Assembly (NCBI RefSeq): GCF_009914755.1
Contig: NC_060936.1
Strand: one strand, 5' to 3'
DNA from: the human T2T-CHM13v2.0 reference genome, Homo sapiens
DNA: 64,000 nt
The notes beneath the pieces are model-generated. The model did not search any database. It was not told the DNA's origin and saw only the letters and a program-made list of their open reading frames with translations. Of the stretch, positions 5,946 to 61,805 are shown piece after piece. The number at the start of each line of letters is the position of its first letter. The stretch's first letter is position 1. The position numbers and the translations under genes were made by a program.

Positions 5946-7189
5946 TTTCTCCGCTGAGATTCTCCATCTGTTCCCTCATTATGAACATCTTTTCCTTTAC
6001 ACAGTTACAATGTCTGCACTAAAGTCATTCTAATTCTAACAGCTGGGTCATAACACTTTTTATTATATACTGGATATTTGAGGGGTAGGCTGTAGATACT
6101 CTTGTCTTCCTTTGAAGGTGTTTTTGTATTAAGCAGTAGTTAAATGATGGGTTGATAAGAACTGAGCATATAGAGGCTTGAATTCACATTTTGTTTGGGT
6201 GGGTCTGTCTCAGCTTTGTCTTTAGGCCTAGGGCGAATCTCTTGGTCGTGGGACAGTCTTTACTCCTAAGGTGTAGTTCTTCTGTGCTTTCAAAGGAAAT
6301 CCTGAGGTGTTTACCAAGCCCCTCCACCTCTGTGTGACTCACACTCCAAACTGTCCCTACTACACGTGCAAAAGCTGAGATCCCGTGTTGAGATCCTGCT
6401 CTGGAATCCTGCTTTCGGCTTTCCGTGTTGCATTCCACTGGGGCACCTCGAGGCTTCCCTGTGTCTGCAGGGCTCAGGAGTCAGCCAGGAATTTCAGAGG
6501 AGTTTGTAAACAGATTTGGGGTCTAGCCTCCCTGTGGCTCGCTGCTTCTGGGCTAGCCCTCCTCATTTCCAGACACTCTGGAAATGCAAATTCTGTTCTC
6601 TGACACTTCACGGTGACAACCTTGCAGCCTTCTGCTTGAATTCTAGCTGTTGCGCTCCAGACAGACTGGGGAGTGCCCTTTGGGAAAAAGAGCCATCAAA
6701 ACGCATATCACACCCAATGCAGTTCTCTTGATTCAAGGGTTGTTGCTGCCTGCTTTTGGTCGCTTTCAAGTGCCTTTCCGTTTTTGTTTTTTGTATTTTG
6801 TTCAGAGTTTATAATTGTTATCTGCTGAAGGGTGAGTCTAGTCAAGCTACACCTTACTCAAATGAACTTTGAGATCACCTTTTAAGGCTGAAGTAAAAGG
6901 AAGAGAGAAGGGGTGTGGGGGGTTGGGAGGGGGTCTGTGAATTCTGTTAACAGAAAGAGAGAGCGCGAGAGGTCTGGAAGACGAGGCTGGGAGTAAAGAG
7001 GTATCTGAGCAATCTGCTCCTTTAATACACTGACTCCTTCTGCCGGACAAAAATGTGAGGGGAAGAGAGAGAGAGAAAGACAGTGTAAGAGCACGTCACA
7101 GAGTACTCTAGCCCTGTGTTCCTGAAATCCAGGGTGCAGGGATTCAAGGGCACTGGAGGAACACGAGGCAAAGCTGCTCTGCATGCCAG

Positions 7190-7955
7190 CCGCTGGTGTG
7201 TGTGTGTATACGTGTGTGTTGCTGGTGGTGTGTACGCACGTGTTGCTGGTGTGTGTGTACGTGTGTGCTGCTGTTGTGTGCATATGTACACGTGTGTTGC
7301 TGGTGTGTGTGTACACATGTGTGCTGCTGGTGTGTGCCTGTGTACACGTGTTGCTGGTGTGTGTACATGTGTGTGCTTCTGGTATGTGTGTGTACACATG
7401 TGCTGCTGGTGTGTGTACAAATGTGTGCCACTGGTGTGTGTGTACACCTGTATGTTGCTGGTGTGTGTGTATACGTGTGTGCTGCTAGTGTGTGCATGTG
7501 TACACGTGTGTTGCTGGTGTGTGTACATGTGTGTGCTGCTGGTGTGTGTACACGTGCTGCTGGTGTGTGTACAAATGTGTGCCACTGGTGTGTGTACACC
7601 TGTATGTTGCTGGTGTGTGTGTACACGTGTGTGCTGCTAGTGTGTGCATATGTACATGTGTGTGTTGCTGGTGTGTGTGTACATGTGTGCCACTGATGTG
7701 TGCGTGTGTACACGTGTGTGCTGGTGTGTGTACGTGTGTGTTGCTGGTGTATGTGTGTACACATGTATGCCGCTCGTGTGTGCATGTGTACACGCGTGTT
7801 ACTGGTGTGTGTACACGTGTGTGCTGCTGGTATGTGTGTACACATGTGCTGCTGGTGTGTGTGTACACGTGTATGCAACTGGCATGTGTGTACAATACAC
7901 GTGTGCTGCTGGTATATGTACATGTGTGCTGCTGCTGTGTGTGCATATTCATGCG
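7190..7955. repeat. Complex TG/CA-rich tandem repeat (~22-30 bp units such as GTGTGTACACGTGTGTGCTGCTG)
   Basis: Directly visible; produces the Cys/Val and His/Thr low-complexity ORFs. Confidence 0.95.
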
Positions 7956-43807: not shown

Positions 43808-44020
43808 ATGCCCGGTGAGGGTGCCTGGTGGGCGTGTCTGGTGGGCGTGTCTGGTAAGCGTGCCTGGTGGGTGTGCCTGGTGGGCGTGTCTGGTGGACGG
43901 CCTGGTGGGCGTGCCTGGTGGGCGTGTCTGGTGGGTGTGTCTGGTGGGCCAGCCTGGTGGGTGTGCCTGGTGGGCGTGTCTGGTGGGTGTGCTAGGTGGG
44001 CGTGCCTGGTGAGTGTGCCT
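43808..44020. repeat. 13-bp minisatellite GTG(C/T)CTGGTGGG(C/T), ~16 copies, filling most of intron 5
   Basis: Direct observation; intron 5 is 290 nt. Confidence 0.95.
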
Positions 44021-44040
44021 GAGCTGAGCGTGCCGGCTAC

Positions 44041-44203
44041 CTTTGTTGTACACGTTGGTGGGCAGCTGCACGCTGCTGATGGAGGTGTTCACCGGCAGGT
44101 TGCTGAAGTGAGCATTGGACTCCAGGAGGAACTCGGCGCCCAGCTCCACGAAGTTGCCCTTCTCGTCCCTCTCGTTGATCAGGACCGAGTTGTAATAGTC
44201 GAA
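44041..44203 (-). CDS. CACNA2D4: CACNA2D4 exon 5 (163 nt), [10 protein letters not shown]...[10 protein letters not shown]
   Basis: Acceptor ccccag|TTC, donor G|GTAGCC. Confidence 0.96.
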
Positions 44204-44770: not shown

Positions 44771-45238
44771 GGACTGCGTCACGGACATCCCCACGCCAAC
44801 TCCCACGCCGGACTGCCTCACGGACATCCCCACGCCAACTCCCACGCCGGACTGCGTCACGGACATCCCCACGCCAACTCCCACGCCGGACTGCGTCACG
44901 GACATCCCCACGCCAACTCCCACGCCGGACAGCGTCACGGACATCCCCACGCCAACTCCCACGCCGGACTGCCTCACGGACATCCCCACGCCAACTCCCA
45001 CGCCGGACAGCGTTATGGACATCCCCACGCCAACTCCCACGCCGGACTGCGTCACGGACATCCCCACGCCAACTCCCACGCCGGACTGCGTCACGGACAT
45101 CCCCACGCCAACTCCCACGCCGGACTGCGTCACGGACATCCCCACGCCAACTCCCACGCCGGACTGCGTCACGGACATCCCCACGCCAACTCCCACGCCG
45201 GACTGCGTCACGGACATCCCCACGCCAACTCCCACGCC
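44771..45238. repeat. 39-bp VNTR, 12 copies (GGACTGCGTCACGGACATCCCCACGCCAACTCCCACGCC)
   Basis: 468 bp = 12 x 39; near-identical units with a few variants. Confidence 0.97.
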
Positions 45239-55110: not shown

Positions 55111-56659
55111 CCTCAGGGCTATAGTGCACCCCTCTGCTTTAAAGAGGCAGCCCCGTTCCTGTGGAACCACCTTCTGGACCCAGGAAGGGCTTGCTGTGAC
55201 TATGGCTAGAGGACAGCAGCTGAGTTTGCACAGTACTCTGATTGACCCACAAATCTCTTGTTGACCCTGAGGTGGGGGTGTGTCCTCATCCCTGCTTGGC
55301 AGAGGCTCTTGAGGCCCGGGGAGTCCCAGGGGCAGAGCTGGGACTCTGGCTGGTGTTTCCAGGCCTGGTGCCTTTGGGACAGGTCATAGGTCATAGGTGA
55401 AGTCAGTGGACCCACGCCTCCACATCTCAGCTGCTCGTGGGCGGGGCTGGGGACGCATTTGCTGTGCAACTGATGAAGCTTCGGGACCCCTGAATCCACA
55501 GACTCCCCCCTTTCCCGGAGAGGCCCTAGCAATGTGTTCCTGTGGCCAAATGTTTTTGTAAAATATGCAAAAGTTGAGATAGTTTAACCATAACCGGTTG
55601 AGACTGTCTGTCTCTTTCCATCCCAACTTCTCTTCCGTCTGATGGACTCTTAGTTGGATGATGTTTGGGTGGCTGAGGGCACTTGGGGGATCCAGTTAAG
55701 AGGAAAGTGAGCTGGGGAAACACTTAATCTGGGCTTAGTGGGATATGCTGACATGGTTCACAGTGACTTCTTTGTACAGAGAAGTTACCTCCAGCTGAGT
55801 GTAGGCAGGGCTTCCAGGAACACTCATCCCACAGGACATCCCACCAGCAGATGCAGCAAGAGAGGCTGGGCCGTGATGTGAGCGCACGCTGTCACACCCA
55901 CCCTGGCCATGTGTGGTGGGGAGGGCAAAGTAACAGTCAGGAGCTCATCTGCAGAAAATCTACAAAAAGCCACACAGGTAACATCGTTGGTGGAGGATTT
56001 GGTTCTCACCAAGGCCTGGCCAGGACAGAAGTTCTCTCCTGTTAGGAAAATAGTGGATATTGAAAGAATATAATTACACCGTACATTGCTTTGTGTTCTG
56101 ATGAGAGTTACACAAATTAGAATTGATCAAAATTCTTGTGTTGTGAGCCCAAACCAGTAGTAGTACCACATGGGTTCTCCGGGGGTGAAGTCATAGATTT
56201 TATGCAGTCCCCGTATCAGATTATTTTCTTAGTGTAACTGGTGCACTGTGTCTTCACAAAATCTGGTGGTTCCAGCAAAATGGTAAGCAAAATTGCCACC
56301 AACGCAGAGAAATGCTTGCAGAAGCAAGTGTTCTGATGACAAAACTCCTACACAGATTCATCAATAAGTCAGTGCTGTAGTATCAGAGTAATCTGGTGGC
56401 ACAGTTTTGTGGCTGAATACAATGTATTTTTTAAAGGCATCTAAATGATTCCTATGAATGCCTTAATTTCACATAAATTTTGTACATGTTTTGAGGATTA
56501 CAAATCAAACACATTTAGAAAAAATACTACAGAGGCACACTGGGCAGTCAATACATAAAAAGAATGTAACTTCTCTAGGTTTTGTGAATTTGGTGGAATT
56601 CACCAGCTTCTTAAAATTTGTAATTTGGAATGATTTTTAAAACTGAATAAATATTCACC

Positions 56660-57200
56660 TTTTTTCAACTTTTTTATTGTGGCCCAATATAACATAAAAT
56701 GTGCCATCTTAATCATCTTTTTAAGTGTACGGTTTAGTGTAATTAAATACATTAATCATGTTGCTCCACCTTCGCCGCCATCTATCTCTATAATTCGTTC
56801 ATCTTGTAAAACTGAAACTCTGAACCCATTAAACACTAGCTCCCGTTCCCTCCTCCCCCAGCCGCTGGCGGCCACCACTCTCCTTTCTGTGTCTCTGATG
56901 TTGACGGTTCTAGGGACCTCACAGAAGGGAAGTCATCACATAGTTGTCCTTCCATGACTGGCTCATTTCACTTAGCACAATGTCGGTAAGGTTCACCCAC
57001 GGTGCCGCGTGTGTCAGAATTTCCTTACTTTTTGGGGGTGACCAATGATGGGTTAATATTTCATTGTGTGGATAGACCTCATTTTGTGCATCCGTTCCTC
57101 TATCGATGGACCCTGGGGTGGTGTCCTCCTTTTGGCTACTGTGAAATATGCTGCCGTCAACACGGGTGTGCAAATATCTCTCGAGATCCTGCTTTCGATA
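56660..57200 (-). mobile_element. L1 3' end fragment (L1MB-like)
   Basis: Reverse-strand L1 3' UTR motifs (catttcacttagcacaatg; ttttggctactgtgaa). Confidence 0.75.
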
Positions 57201-57807
57201 ATAAATATTCACTTTTATTTTTATGTTTGTACCTGGGATTTGCATTATTTTTCTTTTATGGGTAACCACTCCCACATTATACAAGCTCCCACTGCCCCCA
57301 CGGGGTTCCAGCACCCTGTCCGGAAAGCCTTCGCCTCCCTCTACTGTGTCAAGCGTGACAGCGGCTTGGAAAGCTCCGTCCTTCGCAGACACACTGGCGG
57401 CCTGTGTCCTGTGCGCCCCTTAGACATACTTAGGAAGCCTCAAAACCAGGCCTTCTCAGCCCAAGGCCACCGCCGGCCTCCAGGCGGCTGCCTCTGCCCA
57501 CTTCCCCTTCAGGCTCCAGCGACGGCTTCCTTCCCTGACTGGTGGAGGAGGGGGTACAGCTGGGCTGCATCCTGCGTCCCCTACATCCACCCCTTTCCAA
57601 GGAGTCCTTTGGAAACCAGCTTTCCCACCTGTTTCCTGCGGGCCCCTGTCTGGTACCGGGCCTCCCCACCCTGCCTCTCATCATCTATTCTTAATGCAGC
57701 AACCGAAGGCTCTTTTCAAACGTAAGTCAGACCCTGTGGCTCCCTCCCTCTGCTCCGAAGCCCCCAGGGCTGCCCATCTCCCTTAGAGGAAAAGCCACAG
57801 TTTTGAC

Positions 57808-58219
57808 CACAGCCACGAGGCCCCACCTGGCTGGAGCTGGCTTGATTTTAAAAATCATTCCAAATTACAAATTTTAAGAAGCTGATGAATGCCACCAAAT
57901 TCACAGCCACGAGGCCCCACCTGGCTGGAGCTGGCTTGATTTTAAAAATCATTCCAAATTACAAATTTTAAGAAGCTGATGAATGCCACCAAATTCACAG
58001 CCACGAGGCCCCACCTGGCTGGAGCTGGCTTGATTTTAAAAATCATTCCAAATTACAAATTTTAAGAAGCTGATGAATGCCACCAAATTCACAGCCACGA
58101 GGCCCCACCTGGCTGGAGCTGGCTTGATTTTAAAAATCATTCCAAATTACAAATTTTAAGAAGCTGATGAATGCCACCAAATTCACAGCCACGAGGCCCC
58201 ACCTGGCTGGAGCTGGCTT
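57808..58219. repeat. 94-bp tandem repeat, 4 apparently identical copies plus 36 bp
   Basis: Units start at 57808, 57902, 57996, 58090 and 58184. Confidence 0.97.
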
Positions 58220-59469
58220 CTCCTGACCGCGCCTCTCTGGGCGCGGGCTCCCGCTGCTCCTTGGGTGCCTCAGGCGCGCCCCCCATCGGTGCGGCTGACC
58301 CCCGAGCTTGCAGTCCGCGCCGCGGCTGTGTCTGCCTGCTTCCCCCTGCGTGGCCGGCTCCCTCATTTCCATCAGTGTCTGGCGTCGGGTTTCCTGCAGG
58401 AAGAGCTGGTACCCCTGGATCGGGCAGCTTGAGACGAGTTTAACAGAGAGGCTATTTACAGAGGTGTGGACGGAGTCCTGCAGGGACACTGCAGTGGCCA
58501 GGGCTGGAAACCGCGGGAGCTAGCCCCTGAGCCTCGGGGAGGGGGACGGGGACGGGGACGGGAAAGCCACTGTACCCTGGAGAGAACAGGCTGTATGGGG
58601 GGGACTGTGGCCGCCAGGCAAGGGATGCGGCCAGCCACAGCAGTCCCGTGGGAGGGCTGGGGCCGTGGACACCCACTCACCCTCTGCCTCCCCCGCTCTC
58701 CTGCTGGTGCCTCCACCCGGGGAACCTTAGGGACTTATCCGCGTGCCCTCGCTCCCCCCCCAGGACAGCCCCCCAGGGCAGGGAGAGCACTCGGAGGGGC
58801 CAGCAGGAGGCGTCCGGCTCAAGGTCTTCAACGCCACCTTTTATGATGAAAGTGTCCTTGAATGAGAGAGTGGTGGGCAGTGACGCACGGCTTTGTGAAT
58901 AGCCTGTCAAGCACCGAGCTGCAAACTTTAACATGGAGAATTTTACGGCATGTGAATTACTTCTCCATTAAAAAACCTTTTTTTTTTTTTTGAAAATCAC
59001 CTTTTTAATGAGTGAAGACTTTCCTGGCTACAAGATCCACCATCTTGGCCCGACCCCTGACGTTCCCTGTCCTTCTTCGCAGCATCTTTCTTCTCCTCAG
59101 TGGCTATCATGGGACGTGCCATATACAGGCCTCCTCCTCTAGCACGCAGCCTCCATAAGGGGCAGGGCCTGCGGGCTGTTTGTCCCTGCTGTATGCCCAG
59201 TCCCTCAGCACAAGGAAAGAAAAATGTGATTGGAATGAAGGAGGGATTGAAAGGGGGGTGATTCTGGGTGGAGGTGAGGGCGCTTGGGCCAAGTCCTGCT
59301 TGTCTCCGCCTCCGCTCTCTGGGGCCTTTGAACAGGAGCCCCAGGGCCCCAGGGTCAGTTTGGAAACCCCCATGTAGCCAGGCAAAGGCTTTCATTTCCC
59401 GTTCATTTTACGAATGTGTCTCCGGCGGCTCATTTCATCTTCAAGTGACACAGGACATCACGAAGGCCT

Positions 59470-61463: not shown

Positions 61464-61805
61464 GGGAGGACAGAGGGAGCACTCACCTGGGGAAGAAGGC
61501 CTGGAAACCTCCTGGGAGGACGGAGGGAGCACTCACCTGGGGAAAGAGACCTGGAAACCTCCCGGGAAGACAGAGGAAGCACTCACCTGGGGAAGGAGGC
61601 CTGGAAACCTCCTGGGAGGATGGAGAGAGCACTAACCTGGGGAAGGAGGCCTGGAAACCTCCTGGGAGGATGGAGGGAGCACCCACCTGGGGAAGGAGAC
61701 CTGGAAACCACCCAGGAGGATGGAGGGAGCACCCACCTGGGGAAGGAGGCCTGGAAACCTCCCGGGAGGGTGGAGAGTGCACCTACCTGGGGAAGGGGAC
61801 CTGGC
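61464..61805. repeat. 50-bp minisatellite, ~7 copies
   Basis: The ACTCACCTGG motif or a variant recurs at 61481, 61531, 61581, 61631, 61681, 61731 and 61781. Confidence 0.95.

What the first reader, a model, noticed from the sequence alone, without database searches (positions are those of the whole stretch)
56583..58219. Minisatellite born from an inverted templated insertion: the 94-bp unit is local DNA plus a reverse-complement copy of 56583-56642
Seen in sequence: each 94-bp unit is 36 bp of GC-rich local sequence (CACAGCCACG...GCTGGCTT), then GA, then an AT-rich block. Bases 57846-57905 are the reverse complement of 56583-56642, ~1.2 kb away, with 2 mismatches in 60 bp. The right junction shares 4-bp microhomology (CACA). 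The left junction reads TGATTTTAAAAATCA, a near-palindrome; its extra GA matches the donor's opposite strand (TGATTTT at 56631), suggesting a second short fold-back switch. The array ends with a fifth copy of the 36-bp local part, as expected for an insertion flanked by a duplication. Inference: a replication template switch (FoSTeS/MMBIR or Pol theta-type templated insertion) created one unit, which then expanded recently, since the copies look identical. This preserves the origin of a VNTR ~3 kb upstream of the CACNA2D4 start codon.
Basis: partly seen in the sequence, partly recalled or inferred. Interest (0 to 1): 0.8.

Follow-up and report, generated by a model that had tools for sequence, protein, structure and literature searches.

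The report
Minisatellite seeded by inverted local copy
A 94-base repeat array upstream of the human CACNA2D4 gene is built from 36 bases of native DNA plus a flipped copy of a unique stretch 1.2 kb away, so it preserves how this repeat was born, by mutation processes that are already known.

Summary
57808-58219 holds 4.4 identical 94-bp units. Each unit is 36 bp of native GC-rich DNA, then GA, then the reverse complement of 56583-56642 (58 of 60 bases).

In the 3.1-Gb assembly the 60-bp block was found only at the donor and in the four units. The donor lies in an old interspersed repeat, but other copies are only 62-84% alike. One paralogue aligns across both ends of the block at the donor locus, and only inside the block for the array copy. 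So copying ran from donor to array.

The array starts and ends with the 36-bp part. That fits one template-switch event: leave after GCTT, copy about 58 nt in inverse, return 36 bp upstream on CACA. This gives L-I-L, which then expanded. Fork-based and break-repair versions cannot be told apart.

The two mismatches and the identical units date this only loosely. No outgroup or population data could be reached. This is a neat natural example of known mechanisms, of moderate interest.

The parts
56583..56642 (+). Donor: a 60-nt block whose reverse complement is found in every array unit. It is native here, as part of an old interspersed repeat copy.
   Evidence: 58/60 match to the 4 array copies; no other place in the 3.1-Gb assembly; paralogue L015 aligns to 56557-56678 at 68% over 127 nt, E 2e-10; for the block alone, 0 of 5000 shuffles reach the observed score.
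56198..56659 (.). Old interspersed-repeat copy that contains the donor. It is interrupted at about 56660 by a younger insertion and seems to resume at 57200.
   Evidence: 56198-56511 matches 6 other loci (L006-L011) at 62-72%. L006 aligns colinearly to 56675. L013, L014 and L015 share the AATAAATA.T.A anchor to the right of the block.
56660..57199 (-). High-copy old repeat fragment. From memory it reads as the 3' end of an old L1 in minus orientation, with poly-T at its left end. It is flanked by a 13-nt direct repeat, AATAAATATTCAC (56646-56658 and 57200-57212). It makes up much of the 1.2-kb spacer between donor and array.
   Evidence: 3501 first-look candidates, 40 scored, 39 of them elsewhere in the genome at 69-75% identity., D2: 20-nt direct repeat at 90%. 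The L1 name is recalled and comes from no tool.
57808..57843 (+). First copy of the 36-bp native GC-rich part (L36), CACAGCC...GCTGGCTT. The left flank is unique sequence.
   Evidence: L36 with its left flank occurs only at this locus in the genome.
57808..58219 (+). The minisatellite: (L36 + GA + 56-nt inverted copy) x 4, then a terminal L36.
   Evidence: period 94, 4.4 copies, 100% matches; all units identical.
57844..57901 (+). First 58-nt insert: GA filler (57844-57845), then the inverted copy of the donor. The copy runs to 57905 if the shared CACA is counted with it.
58184..58219 (+). Terminal fifth copy of L36, followed by unique CTCCTGACC.

Best explanation
One complex copying error created the first unit, and ordinary repeat dynamics then multiplied it.

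Reading left to right on the + strand:
1. DNA synthesis reached the end of the native 36-bp segment L36 (...GCTGGCTT, point 1).
2. The 3' end moved to a template 1.2 kb upstream, in reverse-complement orientation (point 2, about 56642).
3. It copied 56-60 nt down to 56583-56587 (point 3).
4. It re-annealed through the 4-nt microhomology CACA at the start of L36, 36 bp behind where it had left (point 4).
5. It copied L36 a second time and went on.

The product is L36-insert-L36. This is a 36-bp tandem duplication with a 58-nt inverted templated insertion in its junction, a net gain of 94 bp. In the four-point notation of template-switch mutations the order is 3-2-4-1, a '4 before 1' event.

The two 36-bp direct repeats, 58 bp apart, then served as the substrate for slippage or unequal exchange. 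That added three more 94-bp units.

Shown: the anatomy, the uniqueness of the donor, and the donor-to-array direction.
Inferred: that it was a single event, the order of steps, and the enzymes.

I put about 0.45 on a replication-fork or BIR-type switch (FoSTeS/MMBIR-like). I put about 0.3 on repair of a staggered break with snap-back synthesis. Both give the same product.

The array has no demonstrated function. It adds four copies of a 94-bp module next to a GC-rich stretch upstream of CACNA2D4.
For: Anatomy:
- Searches give the exact layout.
- The array begins (gac|CACAGCC) and ends (GCTGGCTT|ctcc) with L36.
- By my reasoning on the sequence, a plain insertion followed by tandem duplication of L36+insert would leave the insert at one end of the array. 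It does not.

Source:
- The block was found only at the donor and in the array across 3.1 Gb.
- L36 with its left flank occurs only here.

Direction:
- Paralogue L015 aligns with 56557-56678 across both block boundaries (E 2e-10).
- For the block alone the score is 22, against 7.65 +/- 2.19 in shuffles. None of 5000 shuffles reach it.
- The array copy aligns with L015 only inside the block. The local score is 25, against 42 for the donor locus.
- The donor sits in AT-rich DNA (GC 0.29-0.31). The insert sits in DNA of GC 0.58-0.71.

Junctions:
- The 4-nt microhomology has a chance of about 0.02 per junction.

Precedent:
- Passages of Walker et al. 2021 (PMC7954356) describe inverted templated events in great apes. 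The 2->3 length has a median of 12 and a maximum of 128. [quoted passage not shown]
- Passages of PMC13167724 state that tandem repeats are thought to start from an initial duplication that later expands (Haber and Louis model).
- Only 1 of 6 tandem arrays in this window has an off-array donor.
Against: - No ancestral allele was seen, so 'single event' is a parsimony argument.
- The 2-nt GA filler is not explained by the donor.
- The 1.2-kb distance lies outside the 'tens to hundreds of nucleotides' searched by short-range template-switch studies.
- It is also far beyond the usual Pol theta template distance. About 85% of inserts are primed within 10 bp of the break, and the average insert is about 10 bp (van Schendel 2016, PMC5068794, passages).
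- My first test of direction was negative. The block against the L006 counterpart was no better than shuffles (1141 of 2000 reached the score). The right 40 nt against L013 was marginal (29 of 2000). The case rests mainly on one paralogue, L015, plus colinear anchors in L006, L013 and L014.
- Of the two mismatches, one favours the donor as ancestral (A in L015 and L006). The other is ambiguous (L015 has the array's T, L013 the donor's C).
- The genome search scores only the best candidates and skips very common words, so 'unique' means no close copy was found.
Confidence: 0.7

Rival explanations
1. Break repair rather than a fork error. Two nicks 36 nt apart gave a break with complementary 3' overhangs, both carrying L36. 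After long resection the left 3' end snapped back on its own strand 1.2 kb upstream and copied about 58 nt in inverse. Its new CACA end then paired with the tip of the right overhang. Fill-in synthesis duplicated L36. This is Pol theta-type end joining with a templated insert.
For: - CACA lies exactly at the tip that the right overhang would have.
- Reverse-complement inserts are the stated signature of snap-back synthesis in cis (PMC5068794, S7 Fig legend).
- Templated inserts made by POLQ often carry mismatches. That would explain the 2 of 60 differences at birth.
- The GA filler extends a 4-bp palindrome of the donor to 7 bp, as a short second snap-back would.
- Tandem duplications with inserts at the junction are attributed to TMEJ (Kamp 2020, PMC7368036, passages). 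That paper's reference list names work on adjacent nicks giving tandem duplications.
Against: - In the C. elegans data about 85% of templates lie within 10 bp of the break and inserts average about 10 bp. Here the figures are 1.2 kb and 58 nt.
- It needs more than 1.2 kb of resection plus a precise 36-nt stagger.
- It gives the same product as the fork model, so sequence cannot separate the two.
Confidence: 0.3
2. Two or more separate events. Either a 36-bp tandem duplication arose first and the inverted fragment later landed exactly in its junction, or an insertion was followed by later rearrangements that happen to leave L36 at both ends.
For: Nothing specific. It cannot be excluded without ancestral alleles. 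The window is rich in minisatellites (6 arrays), so local duplications are frequent.
Against: It needs a second break at precisely one phosphodiester bond, or precise loss of one insert. The CACA microhomology at the return point is explained for free by the one-event model.
Confidence: 0.08
3. Reverse direction: the array is the older element, and 56583-56642 is an inverted copy taken from it.
For: At one of the two mismatch sites the paralogue L015 carries the array's base (T) rather than the donor's.
Against: - The old repeat family is colinear through the block and both its flanks at the donor locus. An insertion there would interrupt that alignment.
- The array copy shares nothing with the family outside the block.
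- The donor fits its AT-rich surroundings, and the insert does not fit its own.
Confidence: 0.03
4. Independent transposon fragments or terminal inverted repeats. The two arms are ends of a DNA transposon, or two insertions of the same family.
For: The block does derive from an old interspersed repeat.
Against: - Other family members are 62-84% identical, against 97% between donor and array.
- The arms have no flanking target-site duplication, and the flanks share nothing.
- The right 'arm' is embedded in every unit of a tandem array.
- The left arm is an internal, colinear part of a longer repeat copy.
Confidence: 0.02
5. Assembly artefact: the array or its copy number is a mis-assembly.
For: None found.
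Against: The array is 412 bp with unique flanks, far shorter than the reads behind a telomere-to-telomere assembly (general knowledge). No reads were available here to test this.
Confidence: 0.02

Closest known systems
Template-switch mutations under the four-point model (Loytynoja and Goldman 2017, recalled; Walker et al. 2021, PMC7954356, passages read)
   Same: A reverse-complement copy of nearby sequence is inserted in one event that three fragments describe: L->1, 2->3 and 4->R. '4 before 1' events appear as one large insertion. The 2->3 length here (56-60) lies within their range (maximum 128).
   Different: The template is 1.2 kb away, whereas those scans search tens to hundreds of nucleotides. 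The length is far above their median of 12. The product was then amplified into a tandem array. The word 'tandem repeat' occurs 0 times in that paper's main text.
FoSTeS/MMBIR complex rearrangements (Lee, Carvalho and Lupski; Hastings: recalled, not read here)
   Same: Microhomology at a breakpoint, a templated insertion in inverted orientation from a template in the kb range, and a duplication at the return point.
   Different: The scale is tiny (94 bp gained), against the kb-to-Mb CNVs for which the models were proposed. It is a fixed or polymorphic germline allele of unknown age, not a disease CNV.
Polymerase theta-mediated end joining with templated inserts and tandem duplications (van Schendel 2016, PMC5068794; Kamp 2020, PMC7368036; passages)
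   Same: Microhomology use, templated filler, error-prone copying, the snap-back orientation, and tandem duplication with an insert at the junction.
   Different: Templates there lie mostly within 10 bp of the break and inserts average about 10 bp. The duplications in Kamp 2020 are 1 kb to 1 Mb.
Minisatellite birth from non-contiguous direct repeats or an initial duplication (Haber and Louis 1998; Taylor and Breden 2000; both seen only as citations; MTD paper PMC13167724, passages)
   Same: A segment flanked by direct repeats expands from 1x to many copies. The array keeps one extra copy of the flanking repeat at its end.
   Different: Here the flanking repeat is 36 bp and was itself created by the event that brought in the foreign insert. 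Those models start from pre-existing short microhomologies.
Transposable-element-derived tandem repeats (Ahmed and Liang 2012, PMC3389668, abstract and passages)
   Same: 58 of the 94 nt in each unit descend from an old interspersed repeat.
   Different: The array does not lie inside the repeat copy. The TE-derived part reached it as an inverted local copy from 1.2 kb away.

Membership tests
Minisatellite / VNTR | Head-to-tail tandem copies of a unit of about 10-100 bp | tested here: met
   period 94, 4.4 copies, 100% matches.
Minisatellite / VNTR | Copy number varies among individuals (the 'V' in VNTR) | not testable with these tools
   Only one haplotype is held. CACNA2D4 and LINC00940 are absent from the supplements held as text for four tandem-repeat papers. 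One PDF could not be read. Sulovari 2019 is not held.
Template-switch mutation (four-point model) | The inserted fragment is the reverse complement of nearby sequence | tested here: met
   58/60, with 0 of 100 shuffles giving any match.
Template-switch mutation (four-point model) | Three fragments (L->1, 2->3, 4->R) fully explain the derived sequence | tested here: inconclusive
   they explain L-I-L except for the GA filler and 2 mismatches. The ancestral sequence is inferred, not observed.
Template-switch mutation (four-point model) | Template in the close vicinity (tens to hundreds of nt) for 'short-range' events | tested here: not met
   The distance from point 1 to point 2 is 1201 nt (57843 to 56642).
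Template-switch mutation (four-point model) | Direction resolved by an outgroup | not testable with these tools
   No primate genomes are held. Direction was inferred instead from paralogous repeat copies.
FoSTeS/MMBIR | Microhomology of a few bp at breakpoint junctions | tested here: met
   4 nt (CACA) at the return junction, and 0 nt plus a 2-nt filler at the entry junction.
FoSTeS/MMBIR | Arises during replication or break-induced replication | not testable with these tools
   Sequence alone cannot show this.
Pol theta (TMEJ) templated insertion | Template close to the break (about 85% within 10 bp) | tested here: not met
   The template is 1.2 kb away. The criterion comes from PMC5068794.
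Pol theta (TMEJ) templated insertion | Dependence on POLQ | not testable with these tools
   Needs genetics.
DNA transposon with terminal inverted repeats | Inverted termini bounded by a target-site duplication, with the family consensus ending at the termini | tested here: not met
   the flanks outside the arms share nothing; repeat-family homology continues past both ends of the left arm.
TE-derived tandem repeat | The unit is similar to, or overlaps, a transposable element | tested here: met
   the array block aligns with repeat paralogue L015 (local score 25). The array does not overlap the repeat copy itself.

The most novel reading that the evidence does not exclude
Kilobase-range inverted template switches that return upstream of their departure point may be a general and overlooked way in which minisatellites are born. 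Each such event creates, in one step, a foreign insert flanked by a tens-of-bp direct repeat. That is an ideal substrate for expansion. Current scans miss these events, because short-range template-switch methods search only tens to hundreds of nt and repeat catalogues do not look for inverted local donors. This locus would be the first dissected example. A genome-wide search for array units whose parts have unique inverted donors within a few kb would then find many more, some of them lineage-specific and cis-regulatory.
Probability: 0.25. Interest if true: 0.6.

Novelty: new member of a known kind. Interest (0 to 1): 0.38.

Why it matters
How minisatellites start is still poorly documented. 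The abstract of Ahmed and Liang 2012 says that postulated mechanisms explain only 6% of TE-derived tandem repeats. PMC13167724 calls the origin of tandem repeats incompletely understood.

At this locus the donor, both junctions and the duplicated target are all still readable. It therefore gives a concrete and testable birth model: a template switch with a flanking duplication, followed by expansion.

It also suggests a simple genome-wide screen, namely looking for tandem-array units that have a unique inverted donor nearby. For CACNA2D4 itself nothing functional is shown. The array lies about 3 kb upstream of a retinal channel-subunit gene, so copy number would be worth testing against expression.

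Tried and rejected
1. Independent insertion of a common transposon fragment was rejected. The block was found only at the donor and in the array. Other members of the old repeat family are 62-84% identical.

2. My first direction test failed. The block against paralogue L006 was no better than shuffles (1141 of 2000), and the right 40 nt against L013 was marginal (29 of 2000). Two further genome searches were needed to find L015, which gave a clear result.

3. I looked for another source of the GA filler. Words spanning the left junction (7-9 nt) occur near the locus only in the array itself. No local template was found.

4. The PRDM9-type 13-mer is absent from the array and its close flanks. 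The nearest copy is at 56766.

5. Two units folded as single-stranded DNA give a z-score of only -2.16, with 5 of 200 shuffles folding as well. There is no strong structure.

6. On prior description of the locus: searches for CACNA2D4 with 'VNTR' (4 papers) and with 'tandem repeat' (17 papers) listed nothing about this array by title or abstract. The one candidate I opened (HuRef browser) concerns a coding SNP. The supplements of four tandem-repeat papers hold neither gene name.

7. On prior description of the birth mechanism: three searches listed no paper whose title or abstract describes a minisatellite seeded by an inverted templated insertion. I read only listings and the passages cited above.

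Full report
**1. What is there**

Tandem Repeats Finder reports one array at 57808-58219: period 94, 4.4 copies, 100% matches, no indels. A script confirms that 4 of 4 full units and the final 36-bp partial unit are identical letter for letter.

Each unit has three parts:
- CACAGCCACGAGGCCCCACCTGGCTGGAGCTGGCTT (36 bp, here called L36);
- GA;
- a 56-nt AT-rich stretch.

The AT-rich stretch, together with the next CACA, is the reverse complement of 56583-56642 at 58 of 60 positions. A search allowing up to 3 mismatches finds exactly five places in the 64-kb window: the donor and the four array copies. None of 100 shuffles gave any match. All four array copies carry the same two differences from the donor.

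Homology ends abruptly on both sides.
- At the right end, CACA belongs both to the copy and to L36.
- At the left end, GCTT is followed by GA, which the donor does not template.
- The result is TGATTTTAAAAATCA, a palindrome with 7-nt arms and 1 central base. The donor's own palindrome has 4-bp arms.

The array is preceded by unique ...GTTTTGAC. It ends with a fifth L36 followed by unique CTCCTGACC.

**2. Is the block a common repeat?**

The window's assembly (3.1 Gb, 24 contigs) could be searched.
- A 106-nt query around the donor hit only itself and the four array copies.
- A 361-nt query gave the same for the block. Its left 212 nt also hit five other loci at 69-80%.
- L36 with its left flank occurs only at this locus.

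The tool scores only the best candidates and skips very common words. 'Unique' therefore means that no close copy was found.

Local BLAST shows that 56198-56511 belongs to an old interspersed repeat, matching 6 fetched loci (L006-L011) at 62-72%. The family is not named by any tool.

**3. Direction of copying**

Without outgroups, I asked whether the old-repeat homology runs through the block at the donor locus.

The first test was weak.
- Paralogue L006 aligns colinearly to 56675 and shares the anchor ACT.AATAAATATTCA to the right of the block.
- But the block itself scored no better than shuffles (1141 of 2000 reached it).
- The right 40 nt against L013 was marginal (29 of 2000).

Two further genome searches found more copies, and one of them settled it.
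- L015 aligns with 56557-56678 at 68% over 127 nt, E 2e-10, crossing both boundaries.
- For the block alone the score is 22, against 7.65 +/- 2.19 in shuffles. None of 5000 shuffles reach it.
- The array copy aligns with L015 only inside the block. Its local score is 25, against 42 for the donor locus.

So the 60 nt are native at 56583-56642 and were copied into the array, not the reverse. Composition agrees. The donor lies in DNA of GC 0.29-0.31, and the insert lies in DNA of GC 0.58-0.71.

The two mismatch sites give mixed signals. At the first (donor A, array C), L015 and L006 have the donor's A. At the second (donor C, array T), L015 has T and L013 has C.

**4. The spacer**

The stretch 56680-57195 is a high-copy old repeat. 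The first look found 3501 candidates, 40 were scored, and the 39 elsewhere in the genome are 69-75% identical. From memory it reads as the 3' end of an old L1 in minus orientation. It is bracketed by AATAAATATTCAC at 56646 and 57200 (D2).

This looks like a target-site duplication inside the older repeat. If the insertion is as old as its divergence suggests, donor and acceptor were already about 1.2 kb apart when the copy was made.

**5. How the unit arose**

The layout (L36-insert)x4-L36 constrains the history.
- An insert placed after, or before, a single L36 and then duplicated in tandem would leave the insert at one end of the array.
- A duplication between the two CACA words would end the array with 4 nt of L36, not 36 nt.
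- The observed ends need a first product L36-insert-L36.

One template switch gives exactly this:
- leave after GCTT (57843);
- enter at about 56642, 1201 nt upstream, on the opposite sense;
- copy 56-60 nt;
- return on CACA at the start of L36, 36 bp behind the departure point.

In the four-point notation this is order 3-2-4-1. Walker et al. 2021 (PMC7954356, passages) report great-ape events with a median 2->3 length of 12 and a maximum of 128. They also describe '4 before 1' events, which appear as one large insertion and need the new duplex to be re-opened, as in break-induced replication. Their search space is tens to hundreds of nucleotides, so an event at 1.2 kb would be missed.

A staggered break with 36-nt 3' overhangs, long resection and snap-back synthesis gives the same product.
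- For it: van Schendel et al. 2016 (PMC5068794, passages) state that snap-back gives reverse-complement inserts and that POLQ-templated inserts often carry errors.
- Against it: the same paper says about 85% of templates lie within 10 bp of the break and inserts average about 10 bp.

I favour a fork or BIR-type switch (about 0.45) over break repair (about 0.3). Sequence cannot separate them.

It rests on 2-3 nt.

**6. Expansion and age**

L36-insert-L36 is a segment flanked by 36-bp direct repeats. This is the substrate of the Haber-Louis and Taylor-Breden birth models, which I saw only as citations. PMC13167724 (passages) states that tandem repeats are thought to start with an initial duplication that later expands.

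Dating is loose.
- Zero differences over 412 bp bound a star-like expansion to under about 7-15 My (95%, for two rates), absent homogenisation.
- Two differences in 60 nt give 2-120 My for the copy itself, if they are post-copy substitutions. They may instead be copying errors.
- All units share both differences. So these predate the expansion or were homogenised.
- 'Recent expansion' is therefore plausible but only loosely bounded.

**7. Context**

- The window holds 6 tandem arrays (8 rows). Only this one has an off-array donor.
- No PRDM9-type 13-mer lies in or beside the array.
- Two units fold only modestly as single-stranded DNA (z -2.16).
- To the right of the array lies a GC-rich stretch (58200-58800, GC 0.63-0.73, CpG observed/expected 0.38-0.73).
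- No function was tested.

**8. Is it in print?**

- Searches for CACNA2D4 with 'VNTR' (4 papers) or 'tandem repeat' (17 papers) listed nothing on this array. The one paper I opened concerns a coding SNP.
- The supplements held as text for Lu 2021, Bakhtiari 2021, Eslami Rasekh 2021 and PMC13308034 contain neither CACNA2D4 nor LINC00940. One PDF could not be read.
- Sulovari 2019, which could bear on human specificity, is not held.
- Three searches on templated insertion or template switching with minisatellite origin listed no paper that describes such a birth, judged from titles and abstracts only.

**9. Verdict**

This is a real, locus-specific minisatellite whose origin can be read from its sequence. 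The donor and the direction of copying are established here. The single-event template switch is the most parsimonious model, but no ancestral allele has been seen. The mechanisms are known ones and the locus is a clean example of them. Interest is moderate, and higher if a genome-wide screen shows the route to be common.

Noticed in passing
56646-57212: A high-copy old repeat fragment at about 56660-57199. The first look found 3501 candidates, and the 39 scored matches elsewhere in the genome are 69-75% identical. I recall it as the 3' end of an old L1 in minus orientation. It is bracketed by the direct repeat AATAAATATTCAC (56646 and 57200), which looks like a target-site duplication inside an older repeat.
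   Followed up: partly
56198-56659 and about 57200-57260: An unnamed old interspersed repeat that contains the donor. Paralogues on contigs 8, 15, 1, 16, 7, 11 and 3 are 62-84% identical. Their shared right-hand part carries AATAAATA.T.A.
   Followed up: partly
44771-45238: A 39-bp x 12 minisatellite at 97% matches, in a CACNA2D4 intron next to exon 44041-44203. A 13-bp x 17 array lies at 43809-44034, between two exons.
   Followed up: no
7192-7943 and 61464-61804: Two further minisatellites: 25/52-bp GT-rich units (64-74% matches) overlapping annotated enhancers 6778-7777, and 50 bp x 6.8 (88% matches). The window holds 6 arrays in 64 kb.
   Followed up: no
whole window: The 13-mer CCNCCNTNNCCNC occurs 9 times, against 2.71 +/- 1.64 in shuffles. 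None of 100 shuffles reach 9. None of the matches lies in the 94-bp array. One lies in the L1-like fragment at 56766.
   Followed up: no
58200-58800: A GC-rich stretch directly to the right of the array (GC 0.63-0.73, CpG observed/expected 0.38-0.73), with a (CGGGGA)4.7 run at 58535-58562. No annotated feature is listed there.
   Followed up: no
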